Of a stretch of DNA of 64,000 nucleotides, positions 1-62,289 are shown in pieces. The stretch is from Antedon mediterranea (Eukaryota > Animalia > Echinodermata): NCBI RefSeq assembly GCF_964355755.1, contig NC_092671.1, positions 11,780,001 to 11,844,000 on the forward strand, read 5' to 3'. Both the position numbers and the translations under genes were made by a program. The notes beneath the pieces were generated by a model. That model was not told where the DNA came from. It ran no database searches and worked only from the letters and a program-made list of their open reading frames with translations. The stretch's first letter is position 1. Every line of letters starts with the position of its first letter.

Positions 1-831
1 TATTCAATGTGATGAGCTATGACGAAATATACAAAAATCCTAAATTTTATATTCGCGTGGCCATACGATGACGTCACAATGTCCGGTTAGCCATATTAAT
101 ACCTGATCCGATATCTACAACTCATCTACTTCCAGAATATGTCATCCACAAAAAGTTGACCGTCTAGTTTAGAAATTACGACTGTTTAAAAAAAGGCATA
201 TTTTAAACGAATTTATTAACCTTTTCATAAAAAACGCGCGCAAATTGTCCAATTCGACGTGCTCGTATGACGTATCTTTAAGTCGAAATTTTGTTAAAAT
301 TTGGTAAAATTACTAGAAAAGGCTGGAAAAACATAAATTACGCGAAAAAAATACGTTTTCAATGCTACGTGCGCACCGCACACGTAAAAATGTGCGCACG
401 CGTGGGAATTTTTGACATGCTTAAAACGACATGAAACGCGTAGAAAGTTGATTAGAAATTAATTTTGCGCATTTTGAAATTTTAAATGCGCGTGCGCGCG
501 TAACTTTGTGTAAAACACGGAATTTTTTTTCAACAGAAAGTTAGCGCATGATATAAATTAAACTTTTGCAAAGTTTCAAGTTGAAATGTTATTTGGTTGT
601 CGAGCTATGTTAAATACGACAAAATCGTTAAATCGCGCGTAAGTCACGTTGCGCAATTGTAAACGTCATGAAAAGCTTCGCTTGACGACGTTACGTAAAT
701 GTCAATATGTTAAGATAGTTACCGAAATGTTATGTTTGCGAGTTTTAGAGAAAAGCGTTACACAAAAATCATACAGAATGATTTCGTACAATCACAAGAG
801 GTTATCCTGCAACTTCGTTGCGGATAACCAA

Positions 832-873
832 CTAGACATGTAACTCGTCACTTTGACGAGTTTGGTTATCCGC
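832..873 (-). other. 3' terminus of the element: CTAG end, 9-bp stem-loop and subterminal inverted repeat
   Basis: + strand: CTAG at 832-835; AACTCGTCA-ctt-TGACGAGTT hairpin at 842-862; TTGGTTATCCGC at 862-873 is the reverse complement of the element's other end (GCGGATAACCAA). A hairpin a few nt before CTAG/CTRR is the established Helitron 3' signature. Confidence 0.88.
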
Positions 874-2374
874 AGCGCAAGTGGTGCAACATTAACATTA
901 AGGGGATAGGTTGAGGACAAAAGGAAGTGTTCACGTTGGCATTATGACCTGAACTGAAGAATATGATATGTTGTTATTGCTGAATTTTGTTATTTAAATT
1001 CATATATAGTATACACAGTATAATCTGTATCCATATCACATACAGTGTAGAATAGGTGAAATTACGGGACCCGCTATTTATTGCAATTTTTAACATGTTG
1101 ACGGTTTTAAAATGAAACGCGAAGGTAGCAATTCCGAAAGGAAATTATCTCAGCAACAACGTATTAGCGTGTAGAAGAAATTTGAATACGTGAAATATTG
1201 ATGTGCGCTCTTTTAAATGTAATGAATTATGACGCAAAAGATGAAAATACGACCTTTTTTATTTAACTGGCCATATGATGACGTCACAACATCCGATTGG
1301 CAACATTTTAACATAATTTCGTATCTACAATCCAATAGCTTCCAGAAAAAGTTTTAATCGTGATTATCACATTTTATTCTTACGAGCTATAACAGATTAA
1401 AATTTACTGTAAAGATGAAATTGATGCCACACGTGATTTCAATTTTTAGGCATGATGACGTCATAAAAATTAAAATATTTTTCACTCATGTGAAAGATAG
1501 TTGATTGACCTAGACAATATCAAAATCGGGGTGAAAATGGAAAACGGATAAGTGGAGATGCGCTCTATTCAATGTGATGAGCTATGACGAAAGATACAAA
1601 AATCCTAAATTTTATATTCGCGTGGCCATACGATGACGTCACAATGTCCGGTTAGCCATATTAATACCTGATCCGATATCTACAACTCATCTACTTCCAG
1701 AATATGCCATCCACAAAAAGTTGACCTTCTAGTTTAGAAATTACGACTGTTTAAAAAAAGGCATATTTTAAACGAATTTTTTAACCTTTTCATAAAAAAC
1801 GCGCGCAAATTGTACAATTCGACGTGCTCGTATGACGTATCCTTAAGTCGAAATTGTTAAAAATTTGGTAAAATTACATGAAAAGGCTGGAAAAACATAA
1901 ATCACGCGAAAAAAATACGTTTTCAATGCTACGTGCGCACCGCACACGTAAAAATGTGCGCAAGCGTGGGAATTTTTGACATGCTTAAAACGACATGAAA
2001 CACGTAGAAAGTTGATTATAAATTAATTTCGCGCATTTTGAAATTTTAAATGCGCGTGCGCGCGTAACTTTGTGTAAAACACGCAATTTTTTTTCAACAG
2101 AAAGTTAGCGCATGATATAAATTAAACTTTTGCAAAGTTTCACTTTAAAATGTTATTTGGTTTTTGACATATGTTAAATACGAGAAAATCGTTAAATCGC
2201 GCGTACGTCACGTTGCGCAATTGTAAACATCATGAAAAGCTTCGCTTGACGACGTTACATAAATGTCAAAATGTTAACATAGTTAACAAAATGTTATGTT
2301 TGCAAGTTTCAGAGAAAAGCGTTACACAAAAATCATACAGAAAGAAAGAAGAAAAATAAAAAGTTGATGTTGAT

Positions 2375-2426
2375 GATTTCGTACAATCACAAGAGGTTAT
2401 CCTGCAACTTCGTTGCGGATAACCAA
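2375..2426 (-). other. 5' terminal cap (type A, ~52 bp) with hairpin
   Basis: GATTTCGTACAATCACAAGAGGTTATCCTGCAACTTCGTTGCGGATAACCAA; stem GGTTATCC-(T)-GCAAC / loop TTC / GTTGC-GGATAACC. Near-invariant in ~30 copies across the window. Confidence 0.85.
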
Positions 2427-2430
2427 AAAG

Positions 2431-2431
2431 T

Positions 2432-2462
<31 letters not shown>
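2431..2462 (+). repeat. (GAT)n microsatellite in the linker next to the 5' cap
   Basis: About 10 GAT copies; variable-length copies precede most type A caps (e.g. ~9135, ~30420, ~41266, ~58862). Confidence 0.9.
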
Positions 2463-4039: not shown

Positions 4040-4603
4040 CTAGACATGTAACTCGTCACTTTGACGAGTTTGGTTATCCGCCGCGCAAGTGGTGCAACAT
4101 TAACATTAAGGGGATAGGTTGAGGACAAAAGGAAGTGTTCACGTTGGCATTATGACCTGAACTGAAGAATATGATATGTTGTTATTGCTGAATTTTATTA
4201 TTTAAATTCATATATAGTATACACAGTATAATCTGTATCCATATCACATACAGTGTAGAATAGGTGAAATTAATTTTGCGCATTTTGAAATTTTAAATGC
4301 GCGTGCGCGCGTAACTTTGTGTAAAACACGCAATTTTTTTTCAACATAAAGTTAGCGCATGATATAAATTAAACTTTTGCGAAGTTTCAAGTTGAAATGT
4401 TATTTGGTTTTCAACATATGTTAAATACGAGAAAAACGTTAAATCGCGCGTACGTCACGTTGCGCAATTGCAAACATCATGAAAAGCTTCGCTTGACGAC
4501 GTTACGTAAATGTCAATATGTTAAGATAGTTACCGAAATGTTATGTTTGCGAGTTTTAGAGAAAAGCGTTACACAAAAATCATACAGAAAGAAAGAAGAA
4601 AAA
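4040..4603 (-). mobile_element. Internally deleted element copy (~960 bp missing)
   Basis: GAATAGGTGAAATTA is joined directly to ATTTTGCGCATTTTG at 4266-4272 through a shared GAAATTA. Confidence 0.85.
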
Positions 4604-7600
4604 CTAGACATGTAACTCGTCACTTTGACGAGTTTGGTTATCCGCCGCGCAAGTGGTGCAACATTAACATTAAGGGGATAGGTTGAGGACAAAAGGAAGT
4701 GTTCACGTTGGCATTATGACCTGAACTGAAGAATATGATATGTTGTTATTGCTGAATTTTTTTGTTTAAATTCATATATAGTTTACACAGTATAATCTGT
4801 ATCCATATCACATACAGTGTAGAATAGGTGAAATTACGGGACCCGCTATTTATTGCAATTTTTAACATGTTGACGGTTTTAAAATGAAACGCGAAGGTAG
4901 CAATTCCGAAAGGAAATTATCTCAGCAACAACGTATTAGCGTGTAAAAGAAATTTGAATACGTGAAATATTGATGCGCGCTCTTTTAAATGTAATGAATT
5001 ATGACGCAAAAGATGAAAATACGACCTTTTTTATTTAACTGGCCATATGATGACGTCACAACATCCGATTGGCAACATTTTAACATAATTTCGTATCTAC
5101 AATCCAATAGCTTCCAGAAAAAGTTTTAATCGTGATTATCACATTTTATTCTTACGAGCTATAACAGATTGAAATTTACTGTAAAGATGAAATTGATGCC
5201 ACACGTGATTTAAATTTTTAGGCATGACGACGTCAAAAAAATTAAAATATTTTTAACTCATGCGAAAGATAATTGATTGACCTAGACAATATCAAAATCG
5301 GGGTGAAAATGGAAAACGGATAAGTGGAGATGCGCTCTATTCAATGTGATGAGCTATGACGAAAGATACAAAAATCCTAAATTTTATATTCGCGTGGCCA
5401 TACGATGACGTCACAATGTCCGGTTAGCCATATTAATACCTGATCCGACATCTACAACTCATCTACTTCCAGAATATGTCATCCACAAAAAGTTGACCGT
5501 CTAGTTTAGAAATTACGACTGTTTAAAAAAAGGCATATTTTAAACGAATTTTTTAACCTTTTCATAAAAAACGCGCGCAAATTGTCCAATTCGACGTGCT
5601 CGTATGACGTATCTTTAAGTCGAAATTGTTTAAAATTTGGTAAAATTACTAGAAAAAGCTGGAAAAACATAAATCACGCGAAAAAAATACGTTTTCAATG
5701 CTACGTGCGCACCGCACACGTAAAAATGTGCGCACGCGTGGGAATTTTTGACATGCTTAAAACGACATAAAACACGTAGAAAGTTGATTATAAATTAATT
5801 TTGCGCATTTTGAAATTTTAAATGCGCGTGCGCGCGTAACTTTGTGTAAAACACGCAATTTTTTTTCAACAGAAAGTTAGCGCATGATATAAATTAAACT
5901 TTTGCAAAGTTTCACTTTAAAATGTTATTTGGTTTTCGACATATGTTAAATACGAGAAAATCGTTAAATCGCGCGTACGTCACGTTGCGCAATTGTAAAC
6001 ATCATGAAAAGCTTCGCTTGACGACGTTACATAAATGTCAAAATGTTAACATAGTTCACAAAATGTTATGTTTGCAAGTTTTAGAGAAAAGCGTGCCACA
6101 AAAATCATACAGAAAGAAAGAAGAGAAATAAAAAGTTGACTAGACACGAACTGAAGAATATGATCTGTTGTTATTGCTGAATTTTATTATTTAAATTCAT
6201 ATATAGTATACACAGTATAATCTGTATCCATATCACATACAGTGTAGAATAGGTGAAATTACGGGACCCGCTATTTATTGCAATTTTTAACATGTTGATG
6301 GTTTTAAAATGAAACGCGAAGTTAGCAATTCCGAAAGCAAATTATCTCAGCAACAACGTATTAGCGTGTAGAAGAAATTTGAATACGTTAAATATTGATG
6401 CGCGCTCTTTTAAATGTAATGAATTATGACGAAAAAGATGAAAATACGACCTTTTTTATTTAACTGGCCATATGATGACGTCACAACATCCGATTGGCAA
6501 CATTTTTACATAATTTCATATCTACAATCCAATAGCTTCCAGAAAAAGTTTTAATCGTGATTATCACATTTTATTCTTACGAGCTATAACAGATTAAAAT
6601 TTACTGTAAAGATGAAATTGATGCCACACGTGATTTAAATTTTTAGGCATGATGACGTCAAAAAAATTAAAATATTTTTAACTCATGCGAAAGATAGTTG
6701 ATTGACCTAGACAATATCAAAATCGGGGTGAAAATGGAAAACGGATAAGTGGAGATGCGCTCTATTCAATGTGATGAGCTATGACGAAAGATACAAAAAT
6801 ACTAAATTTTATATTCGCGTGGCCATACGATGACGTCACAATGTCCGGTTAGCCATATTAATACCTGATCCGATATCTAAAACTCATCTACTTCCAGAAT
6901 ATGTCATCCACAAAAATTTGACCGTCTAGTTTAGAAATTACGACTGTTTAAAAAAAGGCATATTTTAAACGAATTTTTTAACCTTTTCATAAAAAACGCG
7001 CGCAAATTGTCCAATTCGACGTGCTCGTATGACGTATCTTTAAGTCGAAATTGTTTAAAATTTGGTAAAATTACTAGAAAAGGCTGGAAAAACATAAATC
7101 ACGCGAAAAAAATACGTTTTCAATGCTACGTGCGCACCGCACACGTAGAAATGTGCGCACGCGTGGGAATTTTTGACATGCTTAAAACGACATGAAACGC
7201 GTAGAAAGTTAATTATAAATTAATTTTGCGCATTTTGAAATTTTAAATGTGCGTGCGCGCGTAACTTTGTGTAAAACACGCAATTTTTTTTCAACAGAAA
7301 TTTAGCGCATGATATAAATTAAACTTTTGCAAAGTTTCACTTTAAAATGTTATTTGGTTTTCGACATATGTTAAATACGATAAAATCGTTAAATCGCGCG
7401 TACGTCACGTTGCGCAATTGTAAACATCATGAAAAGCTTCGCTTGACGACGTTACATAAATGTCAAAATGTTGACATAGTTAACAAAATGTTATGTTTGC
7501 GAGTTTTAGAGAAAAGCGTTACACAAAAATCATACAGAAAGAAAGAAGAAGAATAACTAGACATGTAACTCGTCACTTTGACGAGTTTGGTTATCCGCCG

Positions 7601-10937: not shown

Positions 10938-12458
10938 CTAGACATGTAACTCGTCACTTTGACGAGTTAGTTATCCGCACGACAAACGCCACGTGCACGT
11001 CATACGTTGGAATATTCCACACAGAAAAAGATTATGGCATTATGACCTGAACTGATGAATATGATAATAGTTGTTAGTGCTGAATTCTGTCAATTTTGAG
11101 TCATATAGTATATAGTACAAACAGTATAATCTGTATATATATTATATACAGTGTAGAATAGGTGAAATTACGGGACCCGCCATTTATTTCAATTTTTAAC
11201 ATGGAGACGGTATCAAAATGAAACACTAAGGTAGCAATTTCGGAAGGAAATTATCTCGGCAACAACATATTATTGTGTAGAAGAAATTAAAATACGTAAA
11301 ATATTGATGCGCGCTCTTTTAAATGTAATGAATTATGACGCAAAAGATGAAAATACGACTTTTTTTATTTAACTGGCCATATGATGACGTCACAACATCC
11401 GATTGGCAAAATTTTCACATGATTTCCTATCTGCAATCAAATAGCTTCTAGAAAACGTTTTAATCGTGATTATCAGATTTTATTCTTACGAGCTATAACA
11501 GATTAAAATTTACTGTAAAGATGAAATTAATGCCACACGTAATTTAAATTTTTAGGCATGATGACGTGACAAAAATTTAAAAAAATTTAATTCATGTGAA
11601 AGATAGTTGATTGACCTACACAATGTTAAAATCGGGGTGAAAATGGAAAACGAATAAGTGGAGAAGCGCTCTATTAAATGTGATGAGCTATGAAGAAAGA
11701 TACAAAAATCCTAAATTGTATATTCGCGTGGCCACACGATGACGTCACAATGTCCGGTTAGCCATATTAATACATGATCCGATATCTACAACTCATCAAC
11801 TTCCAGAAAATGTCATCCACAAAAAGTTGACCGTGCAGTTTAGAAATTACGACTGTTTAAAAAAAGGCATAATTTTGACGAATTTTTGAACTTTTCCATC
11901 AAAAACGCGCGCAAATTGTCCAATTCGACGTGCTCGTATGACGTAACTTTAAGTCGAAATTGTTTAAAAGTTGGTAAAATTACTAGAAAAGGCTGGAAAA
12001 CATAAATCACGCGAAAAAATTATGTTTTCAACGCTACGTGCGCACCGCACACGTTAAAATTTGCGCACGCGTGGGAATTTTTGACATGCTTAAAATGACA
12101 TGAAACGCGTAAAAAGTTGATTATAAATTAATTTTGCGCAATTTGAAATTTTAAATGCGCGTGCGCGCGTAACTTTATGTAAAACACGCAATTTTTTTTC
12201 AACAGAAAGTTAGCACATGATATAAATTAAACTTTTGAAAAGTTTCAATTTAAAATGTTATTTGGTTTTTGACCTATGTTAAATACGAGAAAATCGTTAA
12301 ATCGCGCGTAAGTCACGTTGCGCAATTGTAAACATCCTGAAAAGGTTCGCTGCACAACTTCATATGAATGAAGATATGTTGAGAAAGTTACGAAATGTTA
12401 TGTTTGCAAGTTTTACAGATACGGGTGACACAAAATTTACAGAAAGAAAGAAGATAAA
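10938..12458 (-). mobile_element. Element body, divergent AGTT-subTIR subfamily, no adjacent 5' cap
   Basis: Starts CTAG...GACGAGTTAGTTATCCGCACGACAAACGCC; ends GAAGATAAA directly before the next CTAG. Confidence 0.8.
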
Positions 12459-15400
12459 CTAGACATGTAACTCGTCACTTTGACGAGTTTGGTTATCCGC
12501 CGCGCAAGTGGTGCAACATTAACATTAAGGGGATAGGTAGAGGACAAAAGGAAGTGTTCACGTTGGCATTATGACCTGAACTGAAGAATATGATATGTTG
12601 TTATTGCTGAATTTTATCTATATATAAATTCATATATAGTATACACAGTATAATCTGTATCCATATCACATACAGTGTAGAATATGTGAACTTACGGGAC
12701 CCGCTATTTATTGCAATTTTTAACATGTTGACGGTTTTAAAATGAAACGGGAAGGTAGCAATTCCGAAAGGAAATTATCTCAGCAACAACGTATTAGCGT
12801 GTAGAAGAAATTTGAATACGTGAAATATTGATGCGCGCTCTCTTAAATGTAATGAATTATGACGCAAAAGATGAAAATACGACCTTTTTTATTTAACTGG
12901 CCATATGATGACGTCACAACATCCGATTGGCAACATTTTTACATAATTTCGTATCTACAATCCAATAGCTTCCAGAAAAAGTTTTAATCGTGATTATCAA
13001 ATTTTATTCTTACGAGCTATAAAAGATTAAAATTTACTGTAAAGATGAAATTGATGCCACACGTGATTTAAATTTTTAGGCATGATGACGTCAAAAAAAT
13101 TAAAATATTTTTAACTCATGCGAAAGATAGTTGATTGACCTAGACAATATCAAAATCGGGGTGAAAATGGAAAACGGATAAGTGGAGATGCGCTCTATTC
13201 AATGTGATGAGCTATGACGAAAGATACAAAAATCCTAAATTTTATATTCGCGTGGCCATACGATGACGTCACAAAGTCCGGTTAGCCATATTAATACCTG
13301 ATCCGATATCTACAACTCATCTACTTCTAGAAAATGTCATCCAAAAAAATTTGACCGTCTAGTTTAGAAATTACGACTGTTTAAAAAAAGTCATATTTTA
13401 AAAGAATTTTTTAACCTTTTCATAAAAAACGCGCGCAAATTGGCCAATTCGACATGCTCGTATGACGTATCTTTAAGTCAAAATTGTTTAAAATTTGGTA
13501 AAATTACTAGAAAAGGCTGAAAAAACATAAATCACGCGAAAAAATTACGTTTTCAATTCTACGTGCGCACCGCACACGTAAAAATGTGCGCACGCGTGGG
13601 AATTTTTGACATGCTTAAAACGACATGAAACGCGTAGAAAGTTGATTATAAATTAATTTTGCGCATTTTGAAATTTTAAATGCGCGTGCACGCGTAACTT
13701 TGTGTATAACACGCAATTTTTTTTCAACAGAAAGTTAGCGCATGATATAAATTAAACTTTTGCAAAGTTTCAAGTTGAAATGTTATTTGGTTGTCGAGCT
13801 ATGTTAAATACGACAAAATCGTTAAATCGCGCGTAAGTCACGTTGCGCAATTGTAAACGTCATGAAAAGCTTCGCTTGACGACGTTACGTAAATGTCAAT
13901 ATGTTAAGATAGTTACCAAAATGTTATGTTTGCGAGTTTTGGAGAAAAGCGTTACACAAAAATCATACAGAAAGAAAGAAGAAAAATAAAAAGACTAGAC
14001 ATGTAACTCGTCACTTTGACGAGTTTGGTTATCCGCCGCGCAAGTGGTGCAACATTAACATTAAGGAGATAGGTTGAGGACAAAAGGAAGTGTTCACGTT
14101 GGCATTATGACCTGAACTGAAGAATATGATATGTTGTTATTGCTGAATTTTATTATTTAAATTCATATATAGTATACACAGTATAATCTGTATCCATATC
14201 ACATACAGTGACATACAGTGTAGAATAGGTGAAATTACGGGACCCGCTATTTATTGCAATTTTTAACATGTTGACGGTTTTAAAATGAAACGCGAAGGTA
14301 GAAATTCCGAAAGGAAAATATCTCAGCAACAACGTATTAGCGTGTAGAAGAAATTTGAATACGTGAAATATTGATGCGCGCTCTTTTAAATGTAATGAAT
14401 TATGACGCAAAAGATGAAAATACGACCTTTTTTATTTAACTGGCCATATGATGACGTCACAACATCCGATGGGCAACATTTTTACATAATTTCGTATCTA
14501 CAATCCAATAGCTTCCAGAAAAAGTTTTAATCGTGATTATCACATTTTATTCTTACGAGCTATAACAGATTAAAATTTACTGTAAAGATGAAATTGATGC
14601 CACACGTGATTTAAATTTTTAGGCATGATGACGTCAAAAAAATTAAAATATTTTTAACTCATGCGAAAGATAATTGATTGACCTAGACAATATCAAAATG
14701 GGGGTGAAAATGGAAAACGAATAAGTGAAGATGCGCTCTATTCAATGTGATGAGCTATGACGAAAGATACAAAAATCCTAAATTTTATATTCGCGTGGCC
14801 ATACGATGACGTCACAATGTCCGGTTAGCCATATTAATACCTGATCCGATACCTACAACTCATCTACTTCCAGAATATGTCATCCACAAAAAGTTGACCG
14901 TCTAGTTTAGAAATTACGACTGTTTAAAAAAAGGCATATTTTAAACAAATTTTTTAACCTTTTCGTAAAAAACGCGCGCAAATTGTCCAATTCGACGTGC
15001 TCGTATGACGTATCTTTTAGTCGAAATTGTTTAAAATTTGGTAAAATTACTAGAAAAGGCTGGAAAAACATAAATCACGTGAAAAAAATACGTTTTCAAT
15101 GCTACGTGCGCACCGCACACGTAAAAATGTGCGCACGCGTGGGAATTTTTGACATGCTTAAAACGACATGAAACGCGTAGAAAGTTGATTAGAAATTAAT
15201 TTTGCGCATTTTGAAATTTTAAATGCGCATGCGCGCGTAACTTTGTGTAAAACACGCAATTTTTTTTCAACAGAAAGTTAGCGCATGATATAGATTAAAC
15301 TTTTGCAAAGTTTCACTTTAAAATGTTATTTGGTTTTCGACATATGTTAAATATGAGAAAATCGTTAAATCACGCGTACGTCACGTTGCGCAATTGTAAA

Positions 15401-15652
15401 CATCATGAAAAGCTTCGCTTGACGACGTTACATAAATGTCAAAATGTTAACATAGTTAACAAAATGTTATGTTTGCAAGTTTTAGAGAAAAGCGTTACAC
15501 AAAAATCATACAGAAAGAAAGAAGATTAAGAAAAAGATGATGATGATTTCGTACAATCACAAGAGGTTATCCTGCAACTTCGTTGCGGATAACCAATGAT
15601 GATTTCGTACAATCACAAGAGGTTATCCTGCAACTTCGTTGCGGATAACCAA

Positions 15653-17177
15653 CTAGATTTGAACTCGTCACTTTGACGAGTTCGGGTTATCCGCGCAAAG
15701 GCAACATGCACATACTTTAAACTATATGAACTTCGACAAATATTATGCCATCCTATGACATGAATTAAACATGTTTACAGTGCTGAATTGTACCTATTAT
15801 GTAGCATACAGCATGTTATAGAATACACTGTTATATGTTATATACAGTGTAGTATATACGAAATTACGAGACCATCTTTTAAATCCAATTGTTAACACGA
15901 TGATGTCATCAAATTGACATATAAAGATAACTATTTTAGAAGATAATTATCTAAATAATTACATTAATACAAATTTGAAGAATGTTGGGCACGTAAAAGT
16001 GACATGCGCTCTCGTTTAAACGCAATGAACTTTTACGCAAAGGATAAAAATACGACTTTTTTTATTCAACTGGCCATATGATGACGTCACAGGATCTGGT
16101 TGGCAAAATATTTACATGAATTCGTATCTACAATTCAATGACTTCCAGAAAACGTTTAAATCATGAATATCACTTTTTATTCTGACGAGATATAACAGAT
16201 TAAAATTCACTGTAAAGATGAAAATAAGTGACCCACGTTGTTTAGATTTTTAGACATGATGACGTCATAAGAATTAAAATATTTTAACTCCTGCGAAAGA
16301 TAGTTGATTGACGTAGACAATATTAAAATCTCTGGGGAAATGGAATACGTATAAGTGAGATGCGCTCTGTTGAATGTGATGAGCAATAACGAAAGAGACA
16401 AAAATCCTATATTTTATATTTTAGTGGCCATGCGATGACGTCACAATGTCCGCTTAGCCATATCGATGCATGATTTGATATCTAAAACTCATCTACTTCC
16501 AGAATCTGAAATTTTGAAAATGTTAACCACGGAGTTTAGAATCTATGACTTTTTAAAGAAAGGCATAATTTTCACGAATTTTTGAACTTTTTCATCAAAA
16601 ACGTGCGTAAATTGTTCAATTCTACGTGCTCGTATGACGTGATTTTAAGTCGAAATTGATTGAAAATTGGTATATTTACTATAAAAGGCTGAAAAAACAA
16701 AAATCAAGCATAACAAAGATGTTTTTGCGCCACGTGCGTACGCGCGCGTAAAAAAATTGCGCACGCGTGGGAATTTTTGAAATGCTCAAAATGACATGAA
16801 ACGCGTAGAAAGTTGATTAGAAGTTGATTTTTCGCATTTTGAAATTTTAAACGCGCGTGCGCGCGTAACTTTTTGCGCAATCTGCCATTTTTAATCCATA
16901 GAAATTTTGCGCATGATATGACTTAAATTTTCACCAAGTTTCAATACAAAATGACTTTTGGTTTTTAATCTATGATCAATCATTGAAATTCATAAAATCG
17001 CACGTAACTTACGCTGCGCAACTCCGATATCGTCGAAAAGCTTGGCTGCAAATCTACAGCTATAGGTGAATCTTATGACAAAGGTATACAATCTTATGTT
17101 GGCCAGAATTAGAGATACCCTGCGAACAAAATTCGTGGAAAGAAAGAAGAATAAGATAGAAAAAAAAAAAGAAAAAA
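15653..17177 (-). mobile_element. Strongly diverged long element body (CTAGATTTG subfamily), interrupted in its poly-A linker
   Basis: CTAGATTTGAACTCGTCACTTTGACGAGTTCGGGTTATCCGC start; colinear with but clearly diverged from the major unit; its probable cap is at 18390-18440. Confidence 0.8.
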
Positions 17178-18389
17178 CTAGATTTGAACTCGTCACTACG
17201 GACGAGTTAGGTTATCCGCAGCGCAAAAGCCACGTGCACGTCGTACGTTAGAATATTGCGCGCAAAAAAACGATTATGGCATTGAAAAAATGTTAGTGCG
17301 CTCTCTATTTTGCGTCACGTCTAAGTGTATACGGTATAACACTATATACTGTATACGTACTACATACAGTGCGGAATAGGTGAAAATAAGTGACCAAAGT
17401 TATTGACGCATTTGAACATGATGACGTCATCACAATTTTAAAAATGGTGAATCATGGGAAAGATAATTGATTGACCTAGACAATAATAAAAAAATGATGG
17501 AATTGGAAAATGGATAAAGGAGATGCGCTCTATTAAATGTGACGAGCTATGACGAAAGAGAAAAAAATCCTATATTTCATATTCGAGTGGCCAAACGATG
17601 ACGTCACAATGTCCGGTTAGCCATATCGATGCATGATTCGATATCTACAACTCATCAACTTCTAGAATGTGTAATTTAAAAAAAGTTCACCTCGTAGTTT
17701 ACAATCTATGACTGTTTTAAAAAAGACATAATTTGGACGAATTTTTGAACTTTTTCTTCAAAAACGCGCGCAAATTGTTCAATTCTACGTGCTCGTATGA
17801 CGTGATTTTAAGTCGAAATTGATTGAAAATTGGTAAATTTACTAGAAAAGGCTGAAAAAACAAAAATAAAGCAAAAAAAAGAGGTTTTTGCGCTATGTGC
17901 GCACGCGCGCGTAAAAAAAGTGCGCACGCGTGGGAATTTTTGAAACGCTCAAAATGACATGAAACGCGTAGAAAGTTGATTAGAAATTGATTTTTCGCAT
18001 TTTGAAATTTTAAATGCGCGTGCGCACGTAACTTTCTGCGCAACCTGCCATTTTTAATCCATAGAAAGTTTCCGATTAATATGACTTAAATTTTCACCAA
18101 GTTTCAAAACAAAATTACTTTTGGTTTTTAATCTATGATCAATCATTGAAATTCATAAAATCGCGCGTAAGTTACGCTGCGCAACTCGGACTGGACCGAA
18201 AACCTTATTACGACATCTTCAGACAGAGGTCAATCTTCTGATAAAGTTATACAATGTTATGTTAAGAAGATTTTGAGATACACGCGCAACAAAATTCATG
18301 GAAAGAAAGAAGAAAAAAGAAAAAAAAGAAAAAAAAAAAAAAGATCCTGACAATAACAAGAGGTTATCCGCCAAAGTGCGGATAACCAA
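17178..18389 (-). mobile_element. Short (~1.2 kb) subfamily element with type B cap
   Basis: CTAGATTTGAACTCGTCACTACGGACGAGTTAGGTTATCCGC start; lacks one ~355-bp internal repeat; cap GATCCTGACAATAACAAGAGGTTATCCGCCAAAGTGCGGATAACCAA. Confidence 0.82.
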
Positions 18390-18440
18390 AAAAAGATCCT
18401 GACAATAACAAGGGGTTATCCGCCAAGTGCGGATAACCAA

Positions 18441-24600: not shown

Positions 24601-24760
24601 CGCGTACGTCACGTTGCGCAATTGTAAACATCATGAAAAGCTTCGCTTGACGACGTTACATAAATGTCAAAATGTTAACATAGTTAACAAAATGTTATGT
24701 TTGCGAGTTTTACAGAAAAGCGTTACACAAAAATCATACAGAAAGAAAGAAGAAGAATAA

Positions 24761-30202: not shown

Positions 30203-30233
<31 letters not shown>

Positions 30234-30277
30234 GATCCTGACAATAACAAGGGGTTATCCGCCAAGTGCGGATAACC

Positions 30278-30279
<2 letters not shown>
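29051..30279 (-). mobile_element. Intact short-subfamily element with type B cap
   Basis: CTAGATTTG start; poly-A linker; cap GATCCTGACAATAACAAGGGGTTATCCGCCAAGTGCGGATAACCAA at 30234-30279. Confidence 0.82.
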
Positions 30280-30308
<29 letters not shown>

Positions 30309-30489
30309 TCCTGACAATAACAAGGGGTTATCCGCCAAGTGCGGATAACCAAAAAAAAAAATATTGATCCACTACAATCACAAGGAGTTATCCGCTACTA
30401 AGCGGATAACTAAAAAGTTGATGATGATGATGATGATGATTTCGTACAATCACAAGAGGTTATCCTGCAACTTCGTTGCGGATAACCAA
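30234..30489 (-). repeat. Stack of four 5' caps from three subfamilies (B, B, AGTT-type, A)
   Basis: Caps end at 30279, 30352, 30413 and 30489, separated by poly-A or (GAT)n linker halves. Confidence 0.9.
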
Positions 30490-52538: not shown

Positions 52539-55500
52539 CTAGACATGTAACTCGTCACTTTGACGAGTTTGGTTATCCGCCGCGCAAGTGGTGCAACATT
52601 AACATTAAGGGGATAGGTTGAGGACAAAAGGAAGTGTTCACGTTGGCATTATGACCTGAACTGAAGAATATGATCTGTTGTTATTGCTGAATTTTATTAT
52701 TTAAATTCATATATAGTATACACAGTATAATCTGTATCCATATCACATACAGTGTAGAATAGGTGAAATTACGGGACCCGCTATTTATTGCAATTTTTAA
52801 CATGTTGATGGTTTTAAAATGAAACGCGAAGTTAGCAATTCCGAAAGCAAATTATCTCAGCAACAACGTATTAGCGTGTAGAAGAAATTTGAATACGTTA
52901 AATATTGATGCGCGCTCTTTTAAATGTAATGAACTATGACGAAAAAGATGAAAATACGACCTTTTTTATTTAACTGGCCATATGATGACGTCACAACATC
53001 CGATTGGCAACATTTTTACATAATTCCATATCTACAATCCAATAGCTTCCAGAAAAAGTTTTAATCGTGATTATCACATTTTATTCTTACGAGCTATAAC
53101 AGATTAAAATTTACTGTAAACATGAAATTGATGCCACACGTGATTTAAATTTTTAGGCATGATGACGTCAAAAAAAATAAAATATTTTTAACTCATGCGA
53201 AAGATAGTTGATTGACCTAGACAATATCAAAATCGGGGTGAAAATGGAAAACGGATAAGTGGAGATGCGCTCTATTCAATGTGATGAGCTATGACGAAAG
53301 ATACAAAAATACTAAATTTTATATTCGCGTGGCCATACGATGACGTCACAATGTCCGGTTAGCCATATTAATACCTGATCCGATATCTACAACTCATCTA
53401 CTTCCAGAATATGTCATCCACAAAAATTTGACCGTCTAGTTTAGAAATTACGACTGTTTAAAAAAAGGCATATTTTAAACGAATTTTTTAACCTTTTCAT
53501 AAAAAACGCGCGCAAATTGTCCAATTCGACGTGCTCGTATGACGTATCTTTAAGTCGAAATTGTTTAAAATTTGGTAAAATTACTAGAAAAGGCTGGAAA
53601 AACATAAATCACGCGAAAAAAATACGTTTTCAATGCTACGTGCGCACCGCACACGTAGAAATGTGCGCACGCGTGGGAATTTTTGACATGCTTAAAACGA
53701 CATGAAACGCGTAGAAAGTTGATTATAAATTAATTTTGCGCATTTTGAAATTTTAAATGTGCGTGCGCGCGTAACTTTGTGTAAAACATGCAATTTTTTT
53801 TCAACAGAAATTTAGCGCATGATATAAATTAAACTTTTGCAAAGTTTCACTTTAAAATGTTATTTGGTTTTCGACATATGTTAAATACGATAAAATCGTT
53901 AAATCGCGCGTACGTCACGTTGCGCAATTGTAAACATCATGAAAAGCTTCGCTTGACGACGTTACATAAATGTCAAAATGTTAACATAGTTAACAAAATG
54001 TTATGTTTGCGAGTTTTACAGAAAAGCGTTACACAAAAATCATACAGAAAGAAAGAAGAAGAACTAGACATGTAACTCGTCACTTTGACGAGTTTGGTTA
54101 TCCGCCGCGCAAGTGGTGAAACATTAACATTAAGGGGATAGGTTGAGGACAAAAGGAAGTGTTCACGTTGGCATTATGACCTGAACTGAAGAATATGATA
54201 TGTTGTTATTGCTGAATTTTATTATTTAAATCCATATATAGTATACACAGTATAATCTGTATCCATATCACATACAGTGTAGAATAGGTGAAATTACGGG
54301 ACCCGCTATTTATTGCAATTTTTAACATGTTGACGGTTTTAAAATGAAACGCGAAGGTAGTAATTCCGAAAGCAAATTATCTCAGCAACAACGTATTAAC
54401 GTGTAGAAGAAATTTGAATACGTGAAATATTGATGCGCGCTCTTTTAAATGTAATGAATTATGACGCAAAAGATGAAAATACGACCTTTTTTATTTAACT
54501 GGCCATATGATGACGTCACAACATCCGATTGGCAACATTTTTACATAATTTCGTATCTACAATCCAATAGCTTCCAGAAAAAGTTTTATTCGTGATTATC
54601 ACATTTTATTCTTACGAGCTATAACAGATTAAAATTTACTGTAAAGATGAAATTACTGCCACACGTGATTTTAATTTTTAGGCATGATGACGTCAAAAAA
54701 ATTAAAATATTTTTAACTCATGCGAAAGATAGTTGATTGACCTAGACAATGTCAAAATCGGGGTGAAAATGGAAAACGGATAAGTGGAGATGCGCTCTAT
54801 TCAATGTGATGAGCTATGACGAAAGATACAAAAATCCTAAATTTTATATTCGCGTGGCCATACGATGTTGTCAAAATGTCCGGTTAGCCATATTAATACC
54901 TGATCCGATATCTACAACTCATCTACTTCCAGAATATCCCATCCACAAAAAGTTGACCTTCTAGTTTAGAAATTACGACTGTTTAAAAAAAGGCATATTT
55001 TAAACGAATTTTTTAACATTTTCATAAAAAACGCGCGCAAATTGTCCAATTCGACGTGCTCGTATGACGTATCTTTAAGTCGAAATTGTTTAAAATTTGG
55101 TAAAATTACTAGAAAAAGCTGGAAAAACATAAATCACGCGAAAAAAAATCGTTTTCCATGCTACGTGCGCACCGCACACGTAAAAATGTGCGCACGCGTG
55201 GGAATTTTTGACATGCTTAAAACGACATGAAACGCGTAGAAAGTTGATTATAAATTAATTTTGCGCATTTTGAAATTTTAAATGCGCGTGCGCGCGTAAC
55301 TTTGTGTAAAACACGCAATTTTTTTTCAACAGAAAGTTAGCGCATGATATAAATTAAACTTTTGCAAAGTTTCACTTTAAAATGTTATTTGGTTTTCGAC
55401 ATATGTTAAATACGAGAAAATCGTTAAATTGCGCGTACGTCACGTTGCGCAATTGTAAACATCATGAAAAGCTTCGCTTGACGACGTTACATAAATGTCA

Positions 55501-58500
55501 AAATGTTAACATAGGTAACAAAATGTTATGTTTTCAAGTTTTAGAGAAAAGCGTTACACAAAAATCATACAGAAAGAAAGAAGAAAAATAAAAAGTTGAT
55601 GTTGATGATTTCGTACAATCACAAGAGGTTATCCTGCAACTTCGTTGCGGATAACCAACTAGACATGTAACTCGTCACTTTGACGAGTTTGGTTATCCGC
55701 CGCGCAAGTGGTGCAACATTAACATTAAGGGGATAGGTTGAGGACAAAAGGAAGTGTTCACGTTGGCGTTATGACCTGAACTGAAGAATATGATCTGTTG
55801 TTATTGCTGAATTTTATTATTTAAATTCATATATAGTATACACAGTATAATCTGTATCCATATCACATACAGTGTAGAATAGGTGAAATTACGGGACCCG
55901 CTATTTATTGCAATTTTTAACATGTTGACGGTTTTAAAATGAAACGCAAAGTTAGCAATTCCGAAAGGAAATTATCTCAGCAACAACGTATTAGCGTGTA
56001 GAAGAAATTTGAATACGTTAAATATTGATGCGCGCTCTTTTAAATGTAATGAATTATGACGCAACAGATGAAAATACGACCTTTTTTATTTAACTGGCCA
56101 TATGATGACGTCACAACATCCGATTGGCAACATTTTTACATAATTTCGTATCTGCAATCCAATAGCTTCCAGAAAAAATTGTAATCGTGATTATCACATT
56201 TTATTCTTACGAGCTATAACAGATTAAAATTTACTGTAAAGATGAAATTGATGCCATACGTGATTTAAATTTTTAGGCATGATGACGTCAAAAAAATTAA
56301 AATATTTTTAACTCATGCGAAAGATAGTTGATTGACCTAGACAATATCAAAATCGGGATGAAAATGGAAAACGGATAAGTGGAGATGCGCTCTATTCAAT
56401 GTGATGAGCTATGACGAAAGATACAAAAATCCTAAATTTTATATTCGCGTGGCCATACGATGACGTCACAATGTCCGGTTAGCCATATTAATACCTGATC
56501 CGATATCTAAAACTCATCTACTTCCAGAATATGTCATCCACAAAAATTTGACCGTCTAGTTTAGAAATTACGACTGTTTAAAAAAAGGCATATTTTAAAC
56601 GAATTTTTTAACCTTTTCATAAAAAACGCGCGCAAATTGTCCAATTGGACGTGCTCGTATGACGTATCTTTAAGTCGAAATTGTTTAAAATTTGGTAAAA
56701 TTACTAGAAAAAGCTGGAAAAACATAAATCACGCGAAAAAAATACGTTTTCAATGCTACGTGCGCACCGCACACATAAAAATGTGCGCACGCGTGGGAAT
56801 TTTTTACATGCTTAAAACGACATGAAACGCGTAGAAAGTTGATTAGAAATTAATTTTGCGCATTTTGAAATTTTAAATGCGCGTGCGCGCGTAACTTTGT
56901 GTAAAACACGCAATTTTTTTTCAACAGACAGTTAGCGCATGATATAAATTAAACTTTTGAAAAGTTTCACTTTAAAATGTTATTTGGTTTTCGACATATG
57001 TTAAATACGAGAAAATCGTTAAATCGCGCGTACGTCGCGTTGCGCAATTGCAAACATCATGAAAAGCTTCGCTTGACGACGTTACGTGAATGTCAAAATG
57101 TTAACATAGTTAACAAAATGTTATGTTTGCAAGTTTTAGAGAAAAGCGTTACACAAAAATCATACAGAAAGAAAGAAGATGACAAAAAAGATGACTAGAC
57201 ATGTAACTCGTCACTTTGACGAGTTTGGTTATCCGCCGCGCAAGTGGTGCAACATTAACATTAAGGGGATAGGTTGAGGACAAAAGGAAGTGTTCACGTT
57301 GGCATTATGACCTGAACTGAAGAATATGATATGTTGTTATTGCTGAATTTTATTATTTAAATTCATATATAGTATACACAGTATAATCTGTATCCATATC
57401 ACATACAGTGACATACAGTGTAGAATAGGTGAAATTACGGGACCCGCTATTTATTGCAATTTTTAACATGTTGACGGTTTTTAAATGAAACGCGAAGGTA
57501 GCAATTCCGAAAGGAAATTATCTCAGCAACAACGTATTAGCGTGTAGAAGAAATTTTAATACGTGAAATATTGATGAGCGCTCTTTTAAATGTAATGAAT
57601 TATGACGCAAAAGATGAAAATACGACCTTTTTTATTTAACTGGCCATATGATGACGTCACAACATCCGATTGGCAACATTTTTACATAATTTCGTATCTA
57701 CAATCCAATAGCTTCCAGAAAAAGTTTTAATCGTGATTATCACATTTTATTCTTACGAGCTATAACAGATTAAAATCTACTGTAAAGATGAAATTGATGC
57801 CACACGTGATTTAGATTTTTAGGCATGATGACGTCAAAAAAATTAAAATATTTTTAACTCATGCGAAAGATAGTTGATTGACCTACACAATATCAAAATC
57901 GGGGTGAAAGTGGAAAACGAATAAGTGGAGATGCGCTCTATTCAATGTGATGAGCTATGACGAAAGATACAAAAATCCTAAATTTTATATTCGCGTGGCC
58001 ATACGATGACGTCACAATGTCCGGTTAGCCATATTAATACCTGATCCGATACCTACAACTCATCTACTTACAGAATATGTCATCCACAAAAAGTTGACCG
58101 TCTAGTTTAGAAATTACGACTGTTTAAAAAAAGGCATATTTTAAACGAATTTTTTAACCTTTTCATTAAAAACGCGCGCAAATTGTCCAATTCGACGTGC
58201 TCGTATGACGTATCTTTAAGTCGAAATTGTTTAAAATTTGGTAAAATTATTAGAAAAGGCTGGAAAAACATAAATCACGCGAAAAAAATACGTTTTCAAT
58301 GCTACGTGCGCACCGCACACGTAAAAATGTGCGCACGCGTGGGAATTTTTGACATGCTTAAAACGACATGAAACGCGTAGAAAGTTGATTATAAATTAAT
58401 TTTGCGCATTTTGAATATTTAAATGCGCGTGCGCGCGTAACTTTGTGTAAAACACGCAATTTTTTTTCAACAGAAAGTTAGCGCATGAAATAAATTAAAC

Positions 58501-58931
58501 TTTTGCAAAGTTTCACTTTAAAATGTTATTTGGTTTTCGACATATGTTAAATACGAGAAAATCGTTAAATCGCGCGTACGTCACGTTGCGCAATTGTAAA
58601 CATCATGAAAAGCTTCGCTTGACGACGTTACATAAATGTCAAAATGTTAACATAGTTAACAAAATGTTATGTTTGCAAGTTTTAGAGAAAAGCGTTACAC
58701 AAAAATCATACAGAAAGAAAGAAGATTAAGAAAAAGATGTTGATGATTTCGTACAATCACAAGAGGTTATCCTGCAACTTCGTTGCGGATAACCAATGAT
58801 GATTTCGTACAATCACAAGAGGTTATCCTGCAACTTCGTTGCGGATAACCAATAAAAAGTTGATGATGATGATGATGATGATTTCGTACAATCACAAGAG
58901 GTTATCCTGCAACTTCGTTGCGGATAACCAA

Positions 58932-60512
58932 CTAGACATGAAACTCGTCACTTTGACGAGTTAGTTATCCGCACGACAAACGCCACGAGCACGTCATGCG
59001 TTGGAATATTGCACACAGAAAAAGATTATGGCATTATGACCTGAAGAAGAATATGATTATGTTATTATTGCTGAATTCTGTTATTTTGTGTCATATAGTA
59101 TACACAGTATAATCTGTATACATCACATACAGTGTAGAATAGGTGAAATTACGGGACCCGCTATTTATTCCAATTTTTAACATGTTGACGGTTTCAAAAT
59201 GAAACCCGAAGGTAGCAATTTCGGAAGAAAATTATCTCAGCAACAACATATTAGCATGTAGAAGAAATTTGAATACGTGAAATATGGATGCGCGCTCTTT
59301 TAAATGTAATGAATTATAATGCAAAAGATGAAAATACGACTTTTTTTATTTAACTGGCCATATGATGACTTCACAACATCCGATTGGCAAAATGTTCACA
59401 TGATTTCGTATCTACAATTCAATAGCTTCCAGAAAACGTTTTAATCGTGATTATCATATTTCATTCTTACGAGCTATAACAGATTAAAATTTACTGTAAA
59501 GATAAAATTTATGCAACATGTAATTTAAATTTTTAGGCATGATGACGTCATAAAAATTAAAATATTTTTAACTCATGCGAAAGACAGTTGATTGACCTAG
59601 ACAATATCAAAATCGGGGTGAAAATGGAAAACGGATAAGTGTAGATGCGCTCTATTAAATGTGATGAGCTATGACGAAAGATACAAAAATCATAAATTTT
59701 GTATTCGCGTGGCCATACAGTGACGTCACAATGTCCGGTTAGCCATAATAATGCATGATCCGATATTTACAACTCATCAACTTCCAGAATATGCAATAAA
59801 AATAACTTTCACCGTTTGGTTTAGAAACTACGACTGTTTAAAAAAAGGTATAATTTTGACAAATTTTGACAAATTTTTGAACTTTTTCATCAAAAACGCA
59901 CATAAATTATCCAATTCGACGTGCCCGTATGACGTGATTTTAAGTCGAAAATGTTTGGAAATTGGTAAAATTACTAAAAAAGAGTGGAAAAACATAAATC
60001 ACGGAAAAAAAATTGTTTTCAACGCTACATGTGCACCGCACGCGTAAAAAAATGCGCACGCGTGGGAATTTTTGACATGCTCAAAATGACATGAAACGCG
60101 TAGAAAGTTGATTAGAAATTGATTTTTCTCAATTTTAAATTTTAAACGCGCATGCGCGCGTAACTTTGTGTGAAACATGCCATTTTTTTTCCACAGTCAG
60201 TTAGCGCAAGATATAAATTAAACTTTTGTTAAGTTTCAATTTAAATTGTTATATGGTTTTCGATCTATATTAAATACGCGAAATTCGTAAAAACGCGCGT
60301 AAGTCATGTTGCGCAACTCTGTCGTCATTCACAATAGGAGGTGCACTATTTCACGTGAATGCCCACATGTTGACAAAGTTATAAAATGTTATGTTAACAC
60401 GTTTTTGAGTTACGCGAGACACAAAATTGACAGAAAGAAAGAATAATACAGAAAAAAAAAAAGATGATTTCATACAGTTACAAGGAGTTATCCGCTGAAT
60501 GCGGATAACTAA
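58932..60512 (-). mobile_element. Intact divergent AGTT-subfamily element
   Basis: subTIR TTAGTTATCCGC; cap GATTTCATACAGTTACAAGGAGTTATCCGCTGAATGCGGATAACTAA. Confidence 0.82.
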
Positions 60513-60647
60513 AAAAGATGATTTCGTACAATCACAAGAGGTTATCCTGCAACTTCGTTGCGGATAACCAAAAATAAAAAGTTGATGATGATGATGATTT
60601 CGTACAATCACAAGAGGTTATCCTGCAACTTCGTTGCGGATAACCAA

Positions 60648-62234
60648 CTAGACATGTAACTCGTCACTTTGACGAGTTTGGTTATCCGCCGCGCAAGTGG
60701 TGCAACATTAACATTAAGGGGATAGGTTGAGGACAAAAGGAAGTGTTCACGTTGGTATTATGACCTGAACTGAAGAATATGATATGTTGTTATTGCTGAA
60801 TTTTATTATTTAAATTCATATATAATATACACAGTATAATCTGTATCCATATCACATACAGTGTAGAATAGGTGAAATTACGGGACCCGCTATTTATTGC
60901 AATTTTTAACATGTTGACGGTTTTAAAATGAAACGCGAAGGTAGCAATTCCGAAAGGAAATTATCTCAGCAACAACGTATTAGCGTGTAGAAGAAATTTG
61001 AATACGTGAAATATTGATGCGCGCTCTTTTAAATGTAATGAATTATGACGCAAAAGATGAAAATACGACCTTTTTTATTTAACTGGCCATATGATGACGT
61101 CACAACATCCGATTGGCAAAATTTTTACATAATTTCGTATCTACAATCCAATAGCTTCCAGACAAAGTTTTAATCGTGATTATCACATTTTATTCTTACG
61201 AGCTATAACAGATTAAAATTTACTGTAAAGATGAAATTAATGCCACACGTGATTTAAATTTTTAGGCACGATGACGTCAAAAAAAATTAAAATATTTTTA
61301 ACTCATGCAAAAGATACTTGATTGACCTAGACAATATCAAAATCGGGGTGAAAATGGAAAACGGATAAGTGGAGATGCGCTCTATTCAATGTGATGAGCT
61401 ATGACGAAAGATACAAAAATCCTAAATTTTATATTCGCGTGGCCATACGATGACGTCATAATGTCCGGTTACCCATATTAATACCTGATCCGATATCTAC
61501 AACTCATCTACTTCCAGAATATGTCATCCACAAAAATTTGACCGTCTAGTTTAGAAATTACGACTGTTTAAAAAAAGGCATATTTTAAACGAATTTTTTA
61601 ACCTTTTCATAAAAAACGCGCGCAAATTGTCCAATTCGACGTGCTCGTATGACGTATCTTTAAGTCGAAATTGTTTAAAATTTGGTAAAATTACTAGAAA
61701 AGGCTGAAAAAACATAAATCACGCGAAAAAAATACGTTTTCAATGCTACGTGCGCACCGTACACGTAAAAATGTGCGCACGCGTGGGAATTTTTGACATG
61801 CTCAAAACGACATGAAACGCGTAGAAAGTTGATTAGAAATTAATTTTGCGCATTTTGAAATTTTAAATGCGCGTGCGCGCGTAACTTTGTGTAAAACACG
61901 CAATTTTTTTTCAACAGACAGTTAGCGCATGATATAAATTAAACTTTTGCAAAGTTTCATTTTAAAATGTTGTTTGGTTTTCGACATATGTTAAATACGA
62001 GAAAATCGTTAAATCGCGCGTACGTCGCGTTGCGCAATTGTAAACATCATGAAAAGCTTCGCTTGACGACGTTACGTGAATGTCAAAATGTTAACATAGT
62101 TAACAAAATGTTATGTTTGCAAGTTTTAGAGAAAAGCGTTACACAAAAATCATACAGAAAGAAAGAAGATGAAAAAAAAGATGATTTCGTACAATCACAA
62201 GAGGTTATCCTGCAACTTCGTTGCGGATAACCAA
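60648..62234 (-). mobile_element. Last intact major-subfamily element of the array
   Basis: Both termini present; shares diagnostic variants with the copy at 21706-23232. Confidence 0.83.
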
Positions 62235-62289
62235 TAAAGATTTCATACAATAACAATAGGTGATCATTTTATTCTAAATGATCACCTAA
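62235..62289 (-). mobile_element. Orphan 5' cap of a distantly related family closing the array
   Basis: GATTTCATACAATAACAA leader like the other caps, then a different perfect 13-bp hairpin TAGGTGATCATTT-tattct-AAATGATCACCTA (62257-62288) followed by an A-run. Confidence 0.65.

What the first reader, a model, noticed from the sequence alone, without database searches (positions are those of the whole stretch)
1..62289. A satellite-like array that appears to be a self-targeting nest of rolling-circle elements
Seen: 41 bodies versus 40 5' caps (hand count, including the diverged last cap). Twenty bodies lack an adjacent cap and stop at variable points within the same short A/GAT-rich linker. 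Other junctions have 2-4 stacked caps, each preceded by what looks like the missing half of a linker. Simple tandem amplification predicts one cap per body. Inference: new copies insert, always in the same orientation, into the linker ~55-90 bp inside the 5' end of a resident copy, pushing its cap outward. Each insertion brings a fresh target, so the array can keep growing. Tandem Helitron/DINE-1 arrays are known, but I do not know of this nested, linker-targeted growth mode being described; novelty is unverified.
Basis: partly seen in the sequence, partly recalled or inferred. Interest (0 to 1): 0.92.

Follow-up and report, generated by a model that had tools for sequence, protein, structure and literature searches.

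The report
Transposon array built by self-nesting
This 62-kb satellite-like block is made of about 41 small protein-less rolling-circle-type transposons whose ends close in last-in-first-out order, most likely because new copies kept landing just inside the front end of older ones, which would be a way to grow repeat DNA other than copying neighbours in tandem.

Summary
Observation confirmed: 41 bodies, 40 5' caps, 20 capless bodies, stacks of 2-4 caps. The units are ~1.6-kb non-coding elements with Helitron2/HINE-type ends, all on the minus strand, in three subfamilies plus one foreign cap. Nesting is well supported. Under a strict stack, 9 of 9 minority-subfamily bodies get their own cap type, 4 of 4 of them displaced (P=4e-5). 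Rejoined linkers fit intact ones better than shuffles (P=7e-4; main subfamily alone P~0.05). Near-identical sister copies are split at different points or left intact. No main-subfamily body (0 of 32) has a neighbour as nearest relative, and only 3 of 19 extra caps fit slippage. Breaks lie 51-85 nt from the host 5' end. Nesting is not perfect: 7 of 18 strict pairs fail or fit poorly, so ends were likely lost later. Long reads and a genome were not available. Self-insertion near the 5' end is already proposed for Fusarium Helitron2 elements, and self-nesting arrays are known for the Cnl1 retroelement. The scale, the cross-subfamily bracket record and the satellite-like outcome were not found in 9 paper searches. 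Verdict: new variant of a known kind.

The parts
1..62286 (-). Nested array of 41 non-autonomous Helitron2/HINE-type elements (runs off the left edge of the window)
60647..62233 (-). Representative intact type-A element (b40), ~1.59 kb, with a 142-bp internal repeat pair 70% alike
60647..60690 (-). 3' end: subterminal inverted repeat, hairpin, terminal CTAG(T); the repeat ends 32-33 nt from the terminus
62158..62182 (-). Linker of b40 (T-rich tract plus ATC microsatellite on the minus strand): the inferred target; the strongest polypurine/polypyrimidine tract of the element
62183..62233 (-). 5' cap: terminal inverted repeat forming a hairpin (z -4.96) plus a ~20-nt core shared by all cap types
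23233..30488 (-). Cleanest nest: A body b16 holds C body b17, which holds A b18 and B b19, which holds B b20
30178..30489 (-). Four-cap stack in order B, B, C, A, the reverse of the open bodies b20, b19, b17, b16
10938..21704 (-). C body b8 and its displaced C cap (21631-21703) about 9 kb from the body end, with six elements between
15653..18439 (-). B body b11 holding intact B element b12; two B caps
21706..23232 (-). Split body b15, 0.33% from intact b40; with the cap at 60511-60569 its linker is rebuilt identical to b40's (that cap also fits b2 within one edit)
52539..58930 (-). Split host b35, one difference from b16 but broken at a different base; holds b36-b38
62233..62286 (-). Foreign cap X with a different inverted repeat and the same inner core; likely the 5' end of the outermost host, whose body is left of the window
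6140..7556 (-). Body b5 with a deletion after its first 7 bases (+ strand); could have removed one whole host body and explain a crossed pair
   Evidence: inference
4040..4603 (-). Body b3 with a ~955-bp internal deletion at a 7-bp microhomology
33618..33627 (-). 10-nt stub of a B-type 3' end between a cap and the next element

Best explanation
The array consists of non-coding elements with Helitron2/HINE-type ends whose caps close in last-in-first-out order, and it likely grew by repeated one-at-a-time insertion of new copies, moved by an inferred Rep-helicase transposase acting in trans, into a T-rich linker 51-85 nt inside the 5' end of resident copies. Shown: anatomy, counts, bracket order, split and unsplit sister copies, one orientation, break positions. 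Inferred: (1) insertion at T|T or T|C with no duplication, the published Helitron2 rule; (2) the site is chosen by the long pyrimidine tract together with nearness to the 5' hairpin, and this asymmetry fixes orientation; (3) each guest brings a new target and leaves a T|T site at its own 5' boundary, giving cap-to-start junctions; (4) subfamilies and at least one other family use each other's linkers; (5) later deletions, recombination between copies, or read-through mobilisation removed some bodies and caps.
For: Strict stack: 9 of 9 B/C bodies get own-type caps, 4 of 4 displaced ones, P=4e-5 in 100,000 shuffles. Summed edit distance of 18 rejoined linkers 62 vs null 103.6+/-12.5, P=7e-4. Innermost pairs 6 of 7 compatible vs 1.05 expected, P=4e-5; best non-crossing matching 14 of 19 caps vs null mean 9.5, max 13 in 1,500 shuffles. 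b16 and b35 differ at 1 site, are broken at different bases and rebuild identical linkers; b15 rebuilds b40's intact linker exactly; b9 and b26 share a tail haplotype and rebuild the same linker from different breaks. 0 of 32 A bodies have a neighbour as nearest relative. All 22 internal breaks are in linkers, though the reference element has 19 such dinucleotide sites there against 315 same-strand and 241 opposite-strand sites in its body. 0 of 6 short-linker copies are split vs 20 of 35 others, Fisher p=0.02. A toy model with 85-100% of insertions in linkers gives the observed cap counts. Linker-to-start joints (X10, X14) and X-cap-to-X-cap joints (X10, X11, X14) occur in contigs of public runs.
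Against: Main subfamily alone: P=0.048 for summed edits; 7 of 13 pairs within one edit vs 3.6 expected, P=0.042. Six A pairs need 2-11 edits and one pair joins an A body to the foreign cap; at least 2 bodies stay open. B and C rejoined linkers are 3-8 edits from the few intact references. Repairs for crossed pairs are post hoc: the b26 mosaic is compatible, but mosaics are common in the family. Three extra caps are exact suffix copies of the previous cap and follow related bodies. Short-linker copies are one clade, so the Fisher test overstates independence. No transposase, dispersed copy or long read was seen. X10/X11 may be the assembly's own sample.
Confidence: 0.82

Rival explanations
1. 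Ordinary tandem amplification (rolling-circle concatemers or unequal crossing-over), with caps later lost at some junctions and duplicated by slippage at others.
For: 18 of 40 junctions are plain cap-to-start. 3 of 19 extra caps are exact suffix copies. Tandem Helitron arrays with many 5' ends by rolling-circle amplification are reported (Xiong 2016, seen only as summarised in PMC12628747).
Against: 16 of 19 extra caps are not suffix copies and 4 change cap type within a stack. The B,B,C,A order mirrors the open bodies. 0 of 32 A bodies are closest to a neighbour. B and C bodies and caps balance 4:4 and 5:5.
Confidence: 0.03
2. Composite transposition is the main builder: units already carrying two or more caps (start at an outer cap, stop at the first 3' end) or two bodies (read-through) were moved as blocks, as proposed for Fusarium FoHeli.
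For: Published model and transposed multi-cap copies (PMC5148889); 3' bypass shown for Helraiser (PMC4778049). Related bodies b10, b30, b38 each carry the same short second cap. Sister pairs b2/b31 and b25/b33 share a break point. Crossed brackets exist.
Against: Each of those three second caps also fits the body just left of it within one edit, so the block reading needs three more lost caps. Sister hosts hold different guests. It still needs self-insertion as its first step.
Confidence: 0.08
3. Nesting is real but targeting is sequence preference alone: the element carries the T-rich tract its transposase likes, and the 5' hairpin plays no part.
For: The linker is the best polypurine window in 4 of 4 long-linker copies tested (22-25 of 25 vs 21-23 next best). 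Short-linker copies keep the cap but are never split. Spacing from the inner hairpin arm varies 25-54 nt, not fixed. T-rich target preference is published for HINEs (PMC4067079).
Against: 11 A-runs and 8 T-runs of 5 or more in the body are never hit. Breaks stay within 51-85 nt of the 5' end across four cap types with different linkers, and several fall in the ATC repeat rather than in a T-run.
Confidence: 0.35
4. Assembly artefact: mis-joins among collapsed repeat copies.
For: No long reads were laid, and no contig spans the stretch laid.
Against: Mis-joins would not put four cap types in last-in-first-out order or rebuild sister linkers exactly. Both odd junction classes occur in contigs of public runs, including a separate sample and study, X14.
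Confidence: 0.02

Closest known systems
FoHeli1 (Helitron2 group) of Fusarium oxysporum with multiple 5' termini (PMC5148889, passages and section 10; PMC13342296, passages)
   Same: Asymmetric inverted repeats with hairpins; short (<200 bp; 31-85 nt quoted) repeated 5' ends, up to five per copy, ascribed to self-insertion; one Metarhizium triple explained as either insertion into the 5' end or rolling-circle replication.
   Different: There the multi-cap copies have one 3' end and are dispersed, and self-insertion was left as a proposal. Here bodies and caps are both kept in place over 62 kb, in three subfamilies, so the order can be tested.
HINE / DINE-1 non-autonomous Helentrons, incl. oyster Cg_HINE (PMC4067079, PMC2374699, PMC7492417; passages)
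   Same: 5' subterminal repeat with partner, microsatellite behind it, 3' subterminal repeat and stem-loop, T-rich target, no coding capacity, clustering.
   Different: 3' end is CTAG(T); the microsatellite is ATC and TTTC-like, not GTCY; no central tandem array. In the passages read, clusters are ascribed to terminator bypass or nearby insertion, not to linker-directed nesting.
Cnl1 non-LTR retrotransposon of Cryptococcus (PMC9942834, passages); Zepp and DIRS-1 (recalled, no call)
   Same: [quoted passage not shown]
   Different: RNA-based element with target-primed reverse transcription; here a DNA element with rolling-circle-type ends and a ~35-nt target zone.
Tandem Helitron arrays by rolling-circle amplification (Xiong 2016) and TE dimers by site preference (McGurk and Barbash 2018), both seen only as summarised in PMC12628747; Hydractinia subtelomeric Helitron-like arrays (PMC11934779, first 2 of 6 parts read)
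   Same: Satellite-like arrays derived from mobile elements, with unequal numbers of ends in the plant case.
   Different: Those involve local copying (same-arm clades in Hydractinia) or side-by-side dimers. Here neighbours are not nearest relatives and ends are interleaved as brackets.

Membership tests
Helitron2/HLE2 non-autonomous (HINE/DINE-1) | 5' inverted repeat 0-2 bp from the end, forming a hairpin with a nearby partner | tested here: met
   Hairpins in A, B, C and X caps, z -4.96, -7.28, -5.96, -5.76; alignment; definition in PMC3627910
Helitron2/HLE2 non-autonomous (HINE/DINE-1) | Subterminal 3' inverted repeat just upstream of a 3' hairpin | tested here: met
   10 of 10 ends aligned share it; 32-33 nt from the end in 4 of 4 checked; hairpin folds in 3 of 3 but z only -1.6 to -2.6
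Helitron2/HLE2 non-autonomous (HINE/DINE-1) | Matching changes in the 5' repeat, its partner and the 3' repeat | tested here: met
   5 of 5 C caps and 5 of 5 C 3' ends carry the same one-base covariant change relative to A/B
Helitron2/HLE2 non-autonomous (HINE/DINE-1) | Microsatellite behind the 5' end; no coding capacity | tested here: met
   ATC and T-rich repeats in the linker; 7 stop-to-stop frames of 90 aa or more in 64 kb, longest 122 aa; no Rfam hit in 57000-64000
Helitron2/HLE2 non-autonomous (HINE/DINE-1) | Insertion at T|T or T|C without target duplication | tested here: inconclusive
   20 of 20 left halves end in GA or AA on + and 39 of 40 caps are followed by AA; removing two A's rebuilds sister linkers exactly. 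This fits T|Y with one terminal T each side, but also 5'-TT ends at A|T or T|T, or a 1-bp duplication.
Helitron2/HLE2 non-autonomous (HINE/DINE-1) | Autonomous partner with Rep-helicase (endonuclease for Helentron) sharing the ends | not testable with these tools
   No genome held; 0 hits in two metagenome scans
Canonical Helitron1 | 5'-TC start, no inverted repeats | tested here: not met
   Ends begin with T(T)GG or T(T)AG and carry inverted repeats
Canonical Helitron1 | CTRR 3' end after a hairpin | tested here: met
   40 of 40 starts on + read CTAG; 39 carry the hairpin, b5 lost it by deletion
Tandemly amplified satellite | One complete unit repeated; neighbours most alike | tested here: not met
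   0 of 32 A bodies nearest to a neighbour; 20 capless junctions and 12 stacks
FoHeli-type multi-cap composites | Multi-cap units that transpose as a block to dispersed sites | not testable with these tools
   Needs the genome

The most novel reading that the evidence does not exclude
Helitron2-type transposases in animals dock on the 5' hairpin and shared core of a resident copy, of any related family, and integrate into the linker behind it. Arrays then act as self-renewing landing pads that soak up new copies in bursts (here four guests of three subfamilies inside a host with one difference from its sister). This would be a general, overlooked route to satellite-like DNA, with insertion order readable from the junctions.
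Probability: 0.4. Interest if true: 0.78.

Novelty: new variant of a known kind. Interest (0 to 1): 0.62.

Why it matters
Tandem Helitron arrays are usually ascribed to rolling-circle over-replication or unequal exchange. This array carries internal evidence for a third route, growth by targeted self-insertion, and turns a proposal made for fungal Helitron2 elements into something testable from assemblies. It gives dozens of ordered insertion events and a narrow target zone for a transposon group for which the papers read here give no biochemistry of target choice. It also warns that repeat finders will call such blocks satellites and mis-set element ends.

Tried and rejected
Whole-genome analysis: no genome held. 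Dispersed copies: 0 hits in both metagenome scans. Rfam on 57000-64000: 0 hits. Run search gave only contig sets, no raw long reads; small-share runs were not used as evidence of habitat. One stretch (60300-64000) was laid on 4 of 14 runs; a genome-wide break-point profile from runs was not obtained. Fixed-spacing idea from an earlier scan note (site spaced like the element's own 3' end, 32-33 nt): observed 25-54 nt, median 36, 0 of 19 at 32-33, so not supported here, though microsatellite length may have drifted. Two-motif model with half of insertions at the 3' flank: P=0.0075 for 20 or more capless bodies in a toy simulation. b26 as the fusion that explains an orphan cap: compatible but not decisive, mosaics are family-wide. 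The b3 head comparison was void (scoring slip) and was redone, where it was uninformative. The second opposite-strand count (35) matches the 3' repeat itself and was ignored. b3's distances are distorted by its deletion. The pair list printed is one of several optimal tracebacks and is not used. Earlier scan notes by place and by sequence: none.
Full report
OBSERVATION. Positions 1-62286 hold 41 bodies of a ~1.5-kb repeat (40 starts reading CTAG on +, plus a partial body at the left edge) and 40 short caps. Twenty bodies have no adjacent cap; the rest carry 1 (9 bodies), 2 (7), 3 (3) or 4 (2) caps. All elements point the same way; no start was found on the other strand.

ANATOMY. On the minus strand an intact unit reads: a terminal inverted repeat folding into a hairpin (z -5.0 to -7.3 for four cap types), a ~20-nt core shared by all caps, a T-rich and ATC-repeat linker, a non-coding body (longest frame in the window 122 aa; no Rfam hit in the last 7 kb), then the matching inverted repeat, a hairpin and CTAG, with the repeat 32-33 nt from the end. 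This fits the definition of Helitron2 ends (PMC3627910, passages) and of HINE/DINE-1 elements (PMC4067079, passages). There are 32 A, 4 B and 5 C bodies and 30 A, 4 B, 5 C and 1 foreign X cap. C bodies and C caps share a one-base covariant change in all three repeat copies. The host is a eukaryote by inference; no genome was held, so the transposase was not seen.

BRACKET TEST. Treating starts as open and caps as close brackets, a strict stack gives every B and C body its own cap type (9 of 9). Four of these caps are displaced, one by six elements (P=4e-5 in 100,000 shuffles). At 30178-30489 the caps read B, B, C, A, the reverse of the four open bodies. The 18 rejoined linkers total 62 edits from intact linkers against 103.6+/-12.5 for shuffles (P=7e-4). 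Six of 7 innermost pairs are compatible (1.05 expected, P=4e-5), and the best non-crossing matching pairs 14 of 19 displaced caps against a null mean of 9.5 and maximum 13 in 1,500 shuffles.

SISTER COPIES. b16 and b35 differ at one site, are broken at different bases and rebuild identical linkers. Split b15 is 0.33% from intact b40 and rebuilds its linker exactly with the cap at 60511-60569, though that cap also fits b2 within one edit. b9 and b26 share a tail haplotype and rebuild one linker from two break points. These act as filled and empty sites. None of 32 A bodies has a neighbour as nearest relative, which argues against local tandem copying. Only 3 of 19 extra caps are suffix copies of the cap before them, and 4 change type, which argues against slippage. 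Host b16 holds four guests of three subfamilies, so either insertion was fast compared with mutation or the sisters were homogenised later; these were not told apart.

WHERE IT FAILS. For A elements alone the strict test is marginal (P=0.048; 7 of 13 pairs within one edit). Six A pairs need 2-11 edits, one A body is paired with the foreign cap, two bodies stay open, and one cap closes a body outside the window. Several crossed pairs would be repaired by losing one host body, for example at the deletion in b5. Copies are visibly mosaic (b31, b26, b13), so recombination occurs, but each repair is post hoc. Read-through or multi-cap mobilisation could do the same (PMC5148889, PMC4778049; passages).

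TARGET. The 19 displaced caps place breaks 51-85 nt from the host 5' end. All 22 internal breaks are in linkers, though a reference element has 19 suitable dinucleotides there against 315 same-strand and 241 opposite-strand ones in its body. All 20 left halves end in GA or AA on +, which fits the T|T or T|C rule quoted for Helitron2 (PMC13085455, passage); boundary and 1-bp duplication cannot be separated. The six copies lacking the linker are never split (0 of 6 vs 20 of 35, p=0.02, one clade). The linker is the strongest polypurine window in 4 of 4 long-linker copies tested. Toy simulations fit best when 85-100% of insertions go to linkers or just inside the host cap, and disfavour an even split with the 3' flank. 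Spacing from the inner hairpin arm is 25-54 nt, not fixed. I therefore infer that both the tract and nearness to the 5' end matter; tract alone remains a live rival (0.35).

OUTSIDE THE WINDOW. Fourteen public runs were listed, all as contigs. Four were laid on 60300-64000. X10 and X11 (one sample, possibly the assembly's source) cover the flank with exact matches. Joints from linker positions 62168-62170 to the element start appear in X10 and X14, some with letters not seen in this window, and X-cap-to-X-cap joints appear in X10, X11 and X14. So both odd junction classes exist outside this assembly and in a second sample, and family X also stacks caps. No listed piece spans the stretch, so the window's own order is not confirmed by reads. 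Two metagenome scans found 0 matches. Four earlier scan notes report the same kind of nest in other genomes; they are unchecked AI notes and count as leads only.

COMPARISON AND NOVELTY. Self-insertion is proposed for Fusarium FoHeli copies with repeated 31-85-nt 5' ends (PMC5148889, passages and section 10; up to five ends in PMC13342296, passages). Self-nesting arrays are described for the retroelement Cnl1 (PMC9942834, passages). Tandem Helitron arrays by rolling-circle amplification and dimers by site preference were seen only as summarised in a review (PMC12628747, passages). Passages of PMC7492417, PMC2374699 and PMC2773423 and two of six parts of PMC11934779 showed no such nest. Nine searches found no report of a tens-of-kilobase, linker-directed, bracket-ordered Helitron2 array; most listed papers were seen as listings only, subscription papers are not searched, and no supplements were read (those of PMC5148889 may show more nested cases). 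It works like FoHeli self-insertion and belongs by structure with non-autonomous Helitron2/HINE elements, partner untested.

VERDICT. Real feature; nested self-insertion 0.82; new variant of a known kind; interest 0.62.

Noticed in passing
window 33618-33627: A 10-nt stub of a B-type 3' end sits between a cap and the next element: a near-total deletion or an abortive insertion.
   Followed up: no
window 46307-46650: The first ~320 bases of b31 match the b16/b35 haplotype and the rest matches b2: a clean recombinant.
   Followed up: partly
window 17178-18301, 27898-29024, 29051-30177: Three of four B bodies lack ~360 bp relative to b11, about the spacing of the internal repeat pair.
   Followed up: partly
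window 777-829, 9074-9126, 31999-32051, 33563-33615, 43054-43106, 49344-49396: A clade of six copies has lost the linker and is never split; it could be a target-free escape variant.
   Followed up: partly
window 62233-62290: The foreign X cap has a different inverted repeat but the same inner core; contigs of three runs show X caps stacked on X caps.
   Followed up: partly
window 62300-62780: The flank begins with a palindrome-rich stretch holding a cap-like motif and is more deeply covered by contigs than the DNA further right; possibly another decayed repeat.
   Followed up: no
window 62929-63414: Two degenerate copies about 255-280 bp apart, each with a pyrimidine tract before AG, like duplicated intron-exon borders.
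   Followed up: no
window 63777-63822: A short stretch between AG and GT that could be a small proline-repeat exon; untested.
   Followed up: no
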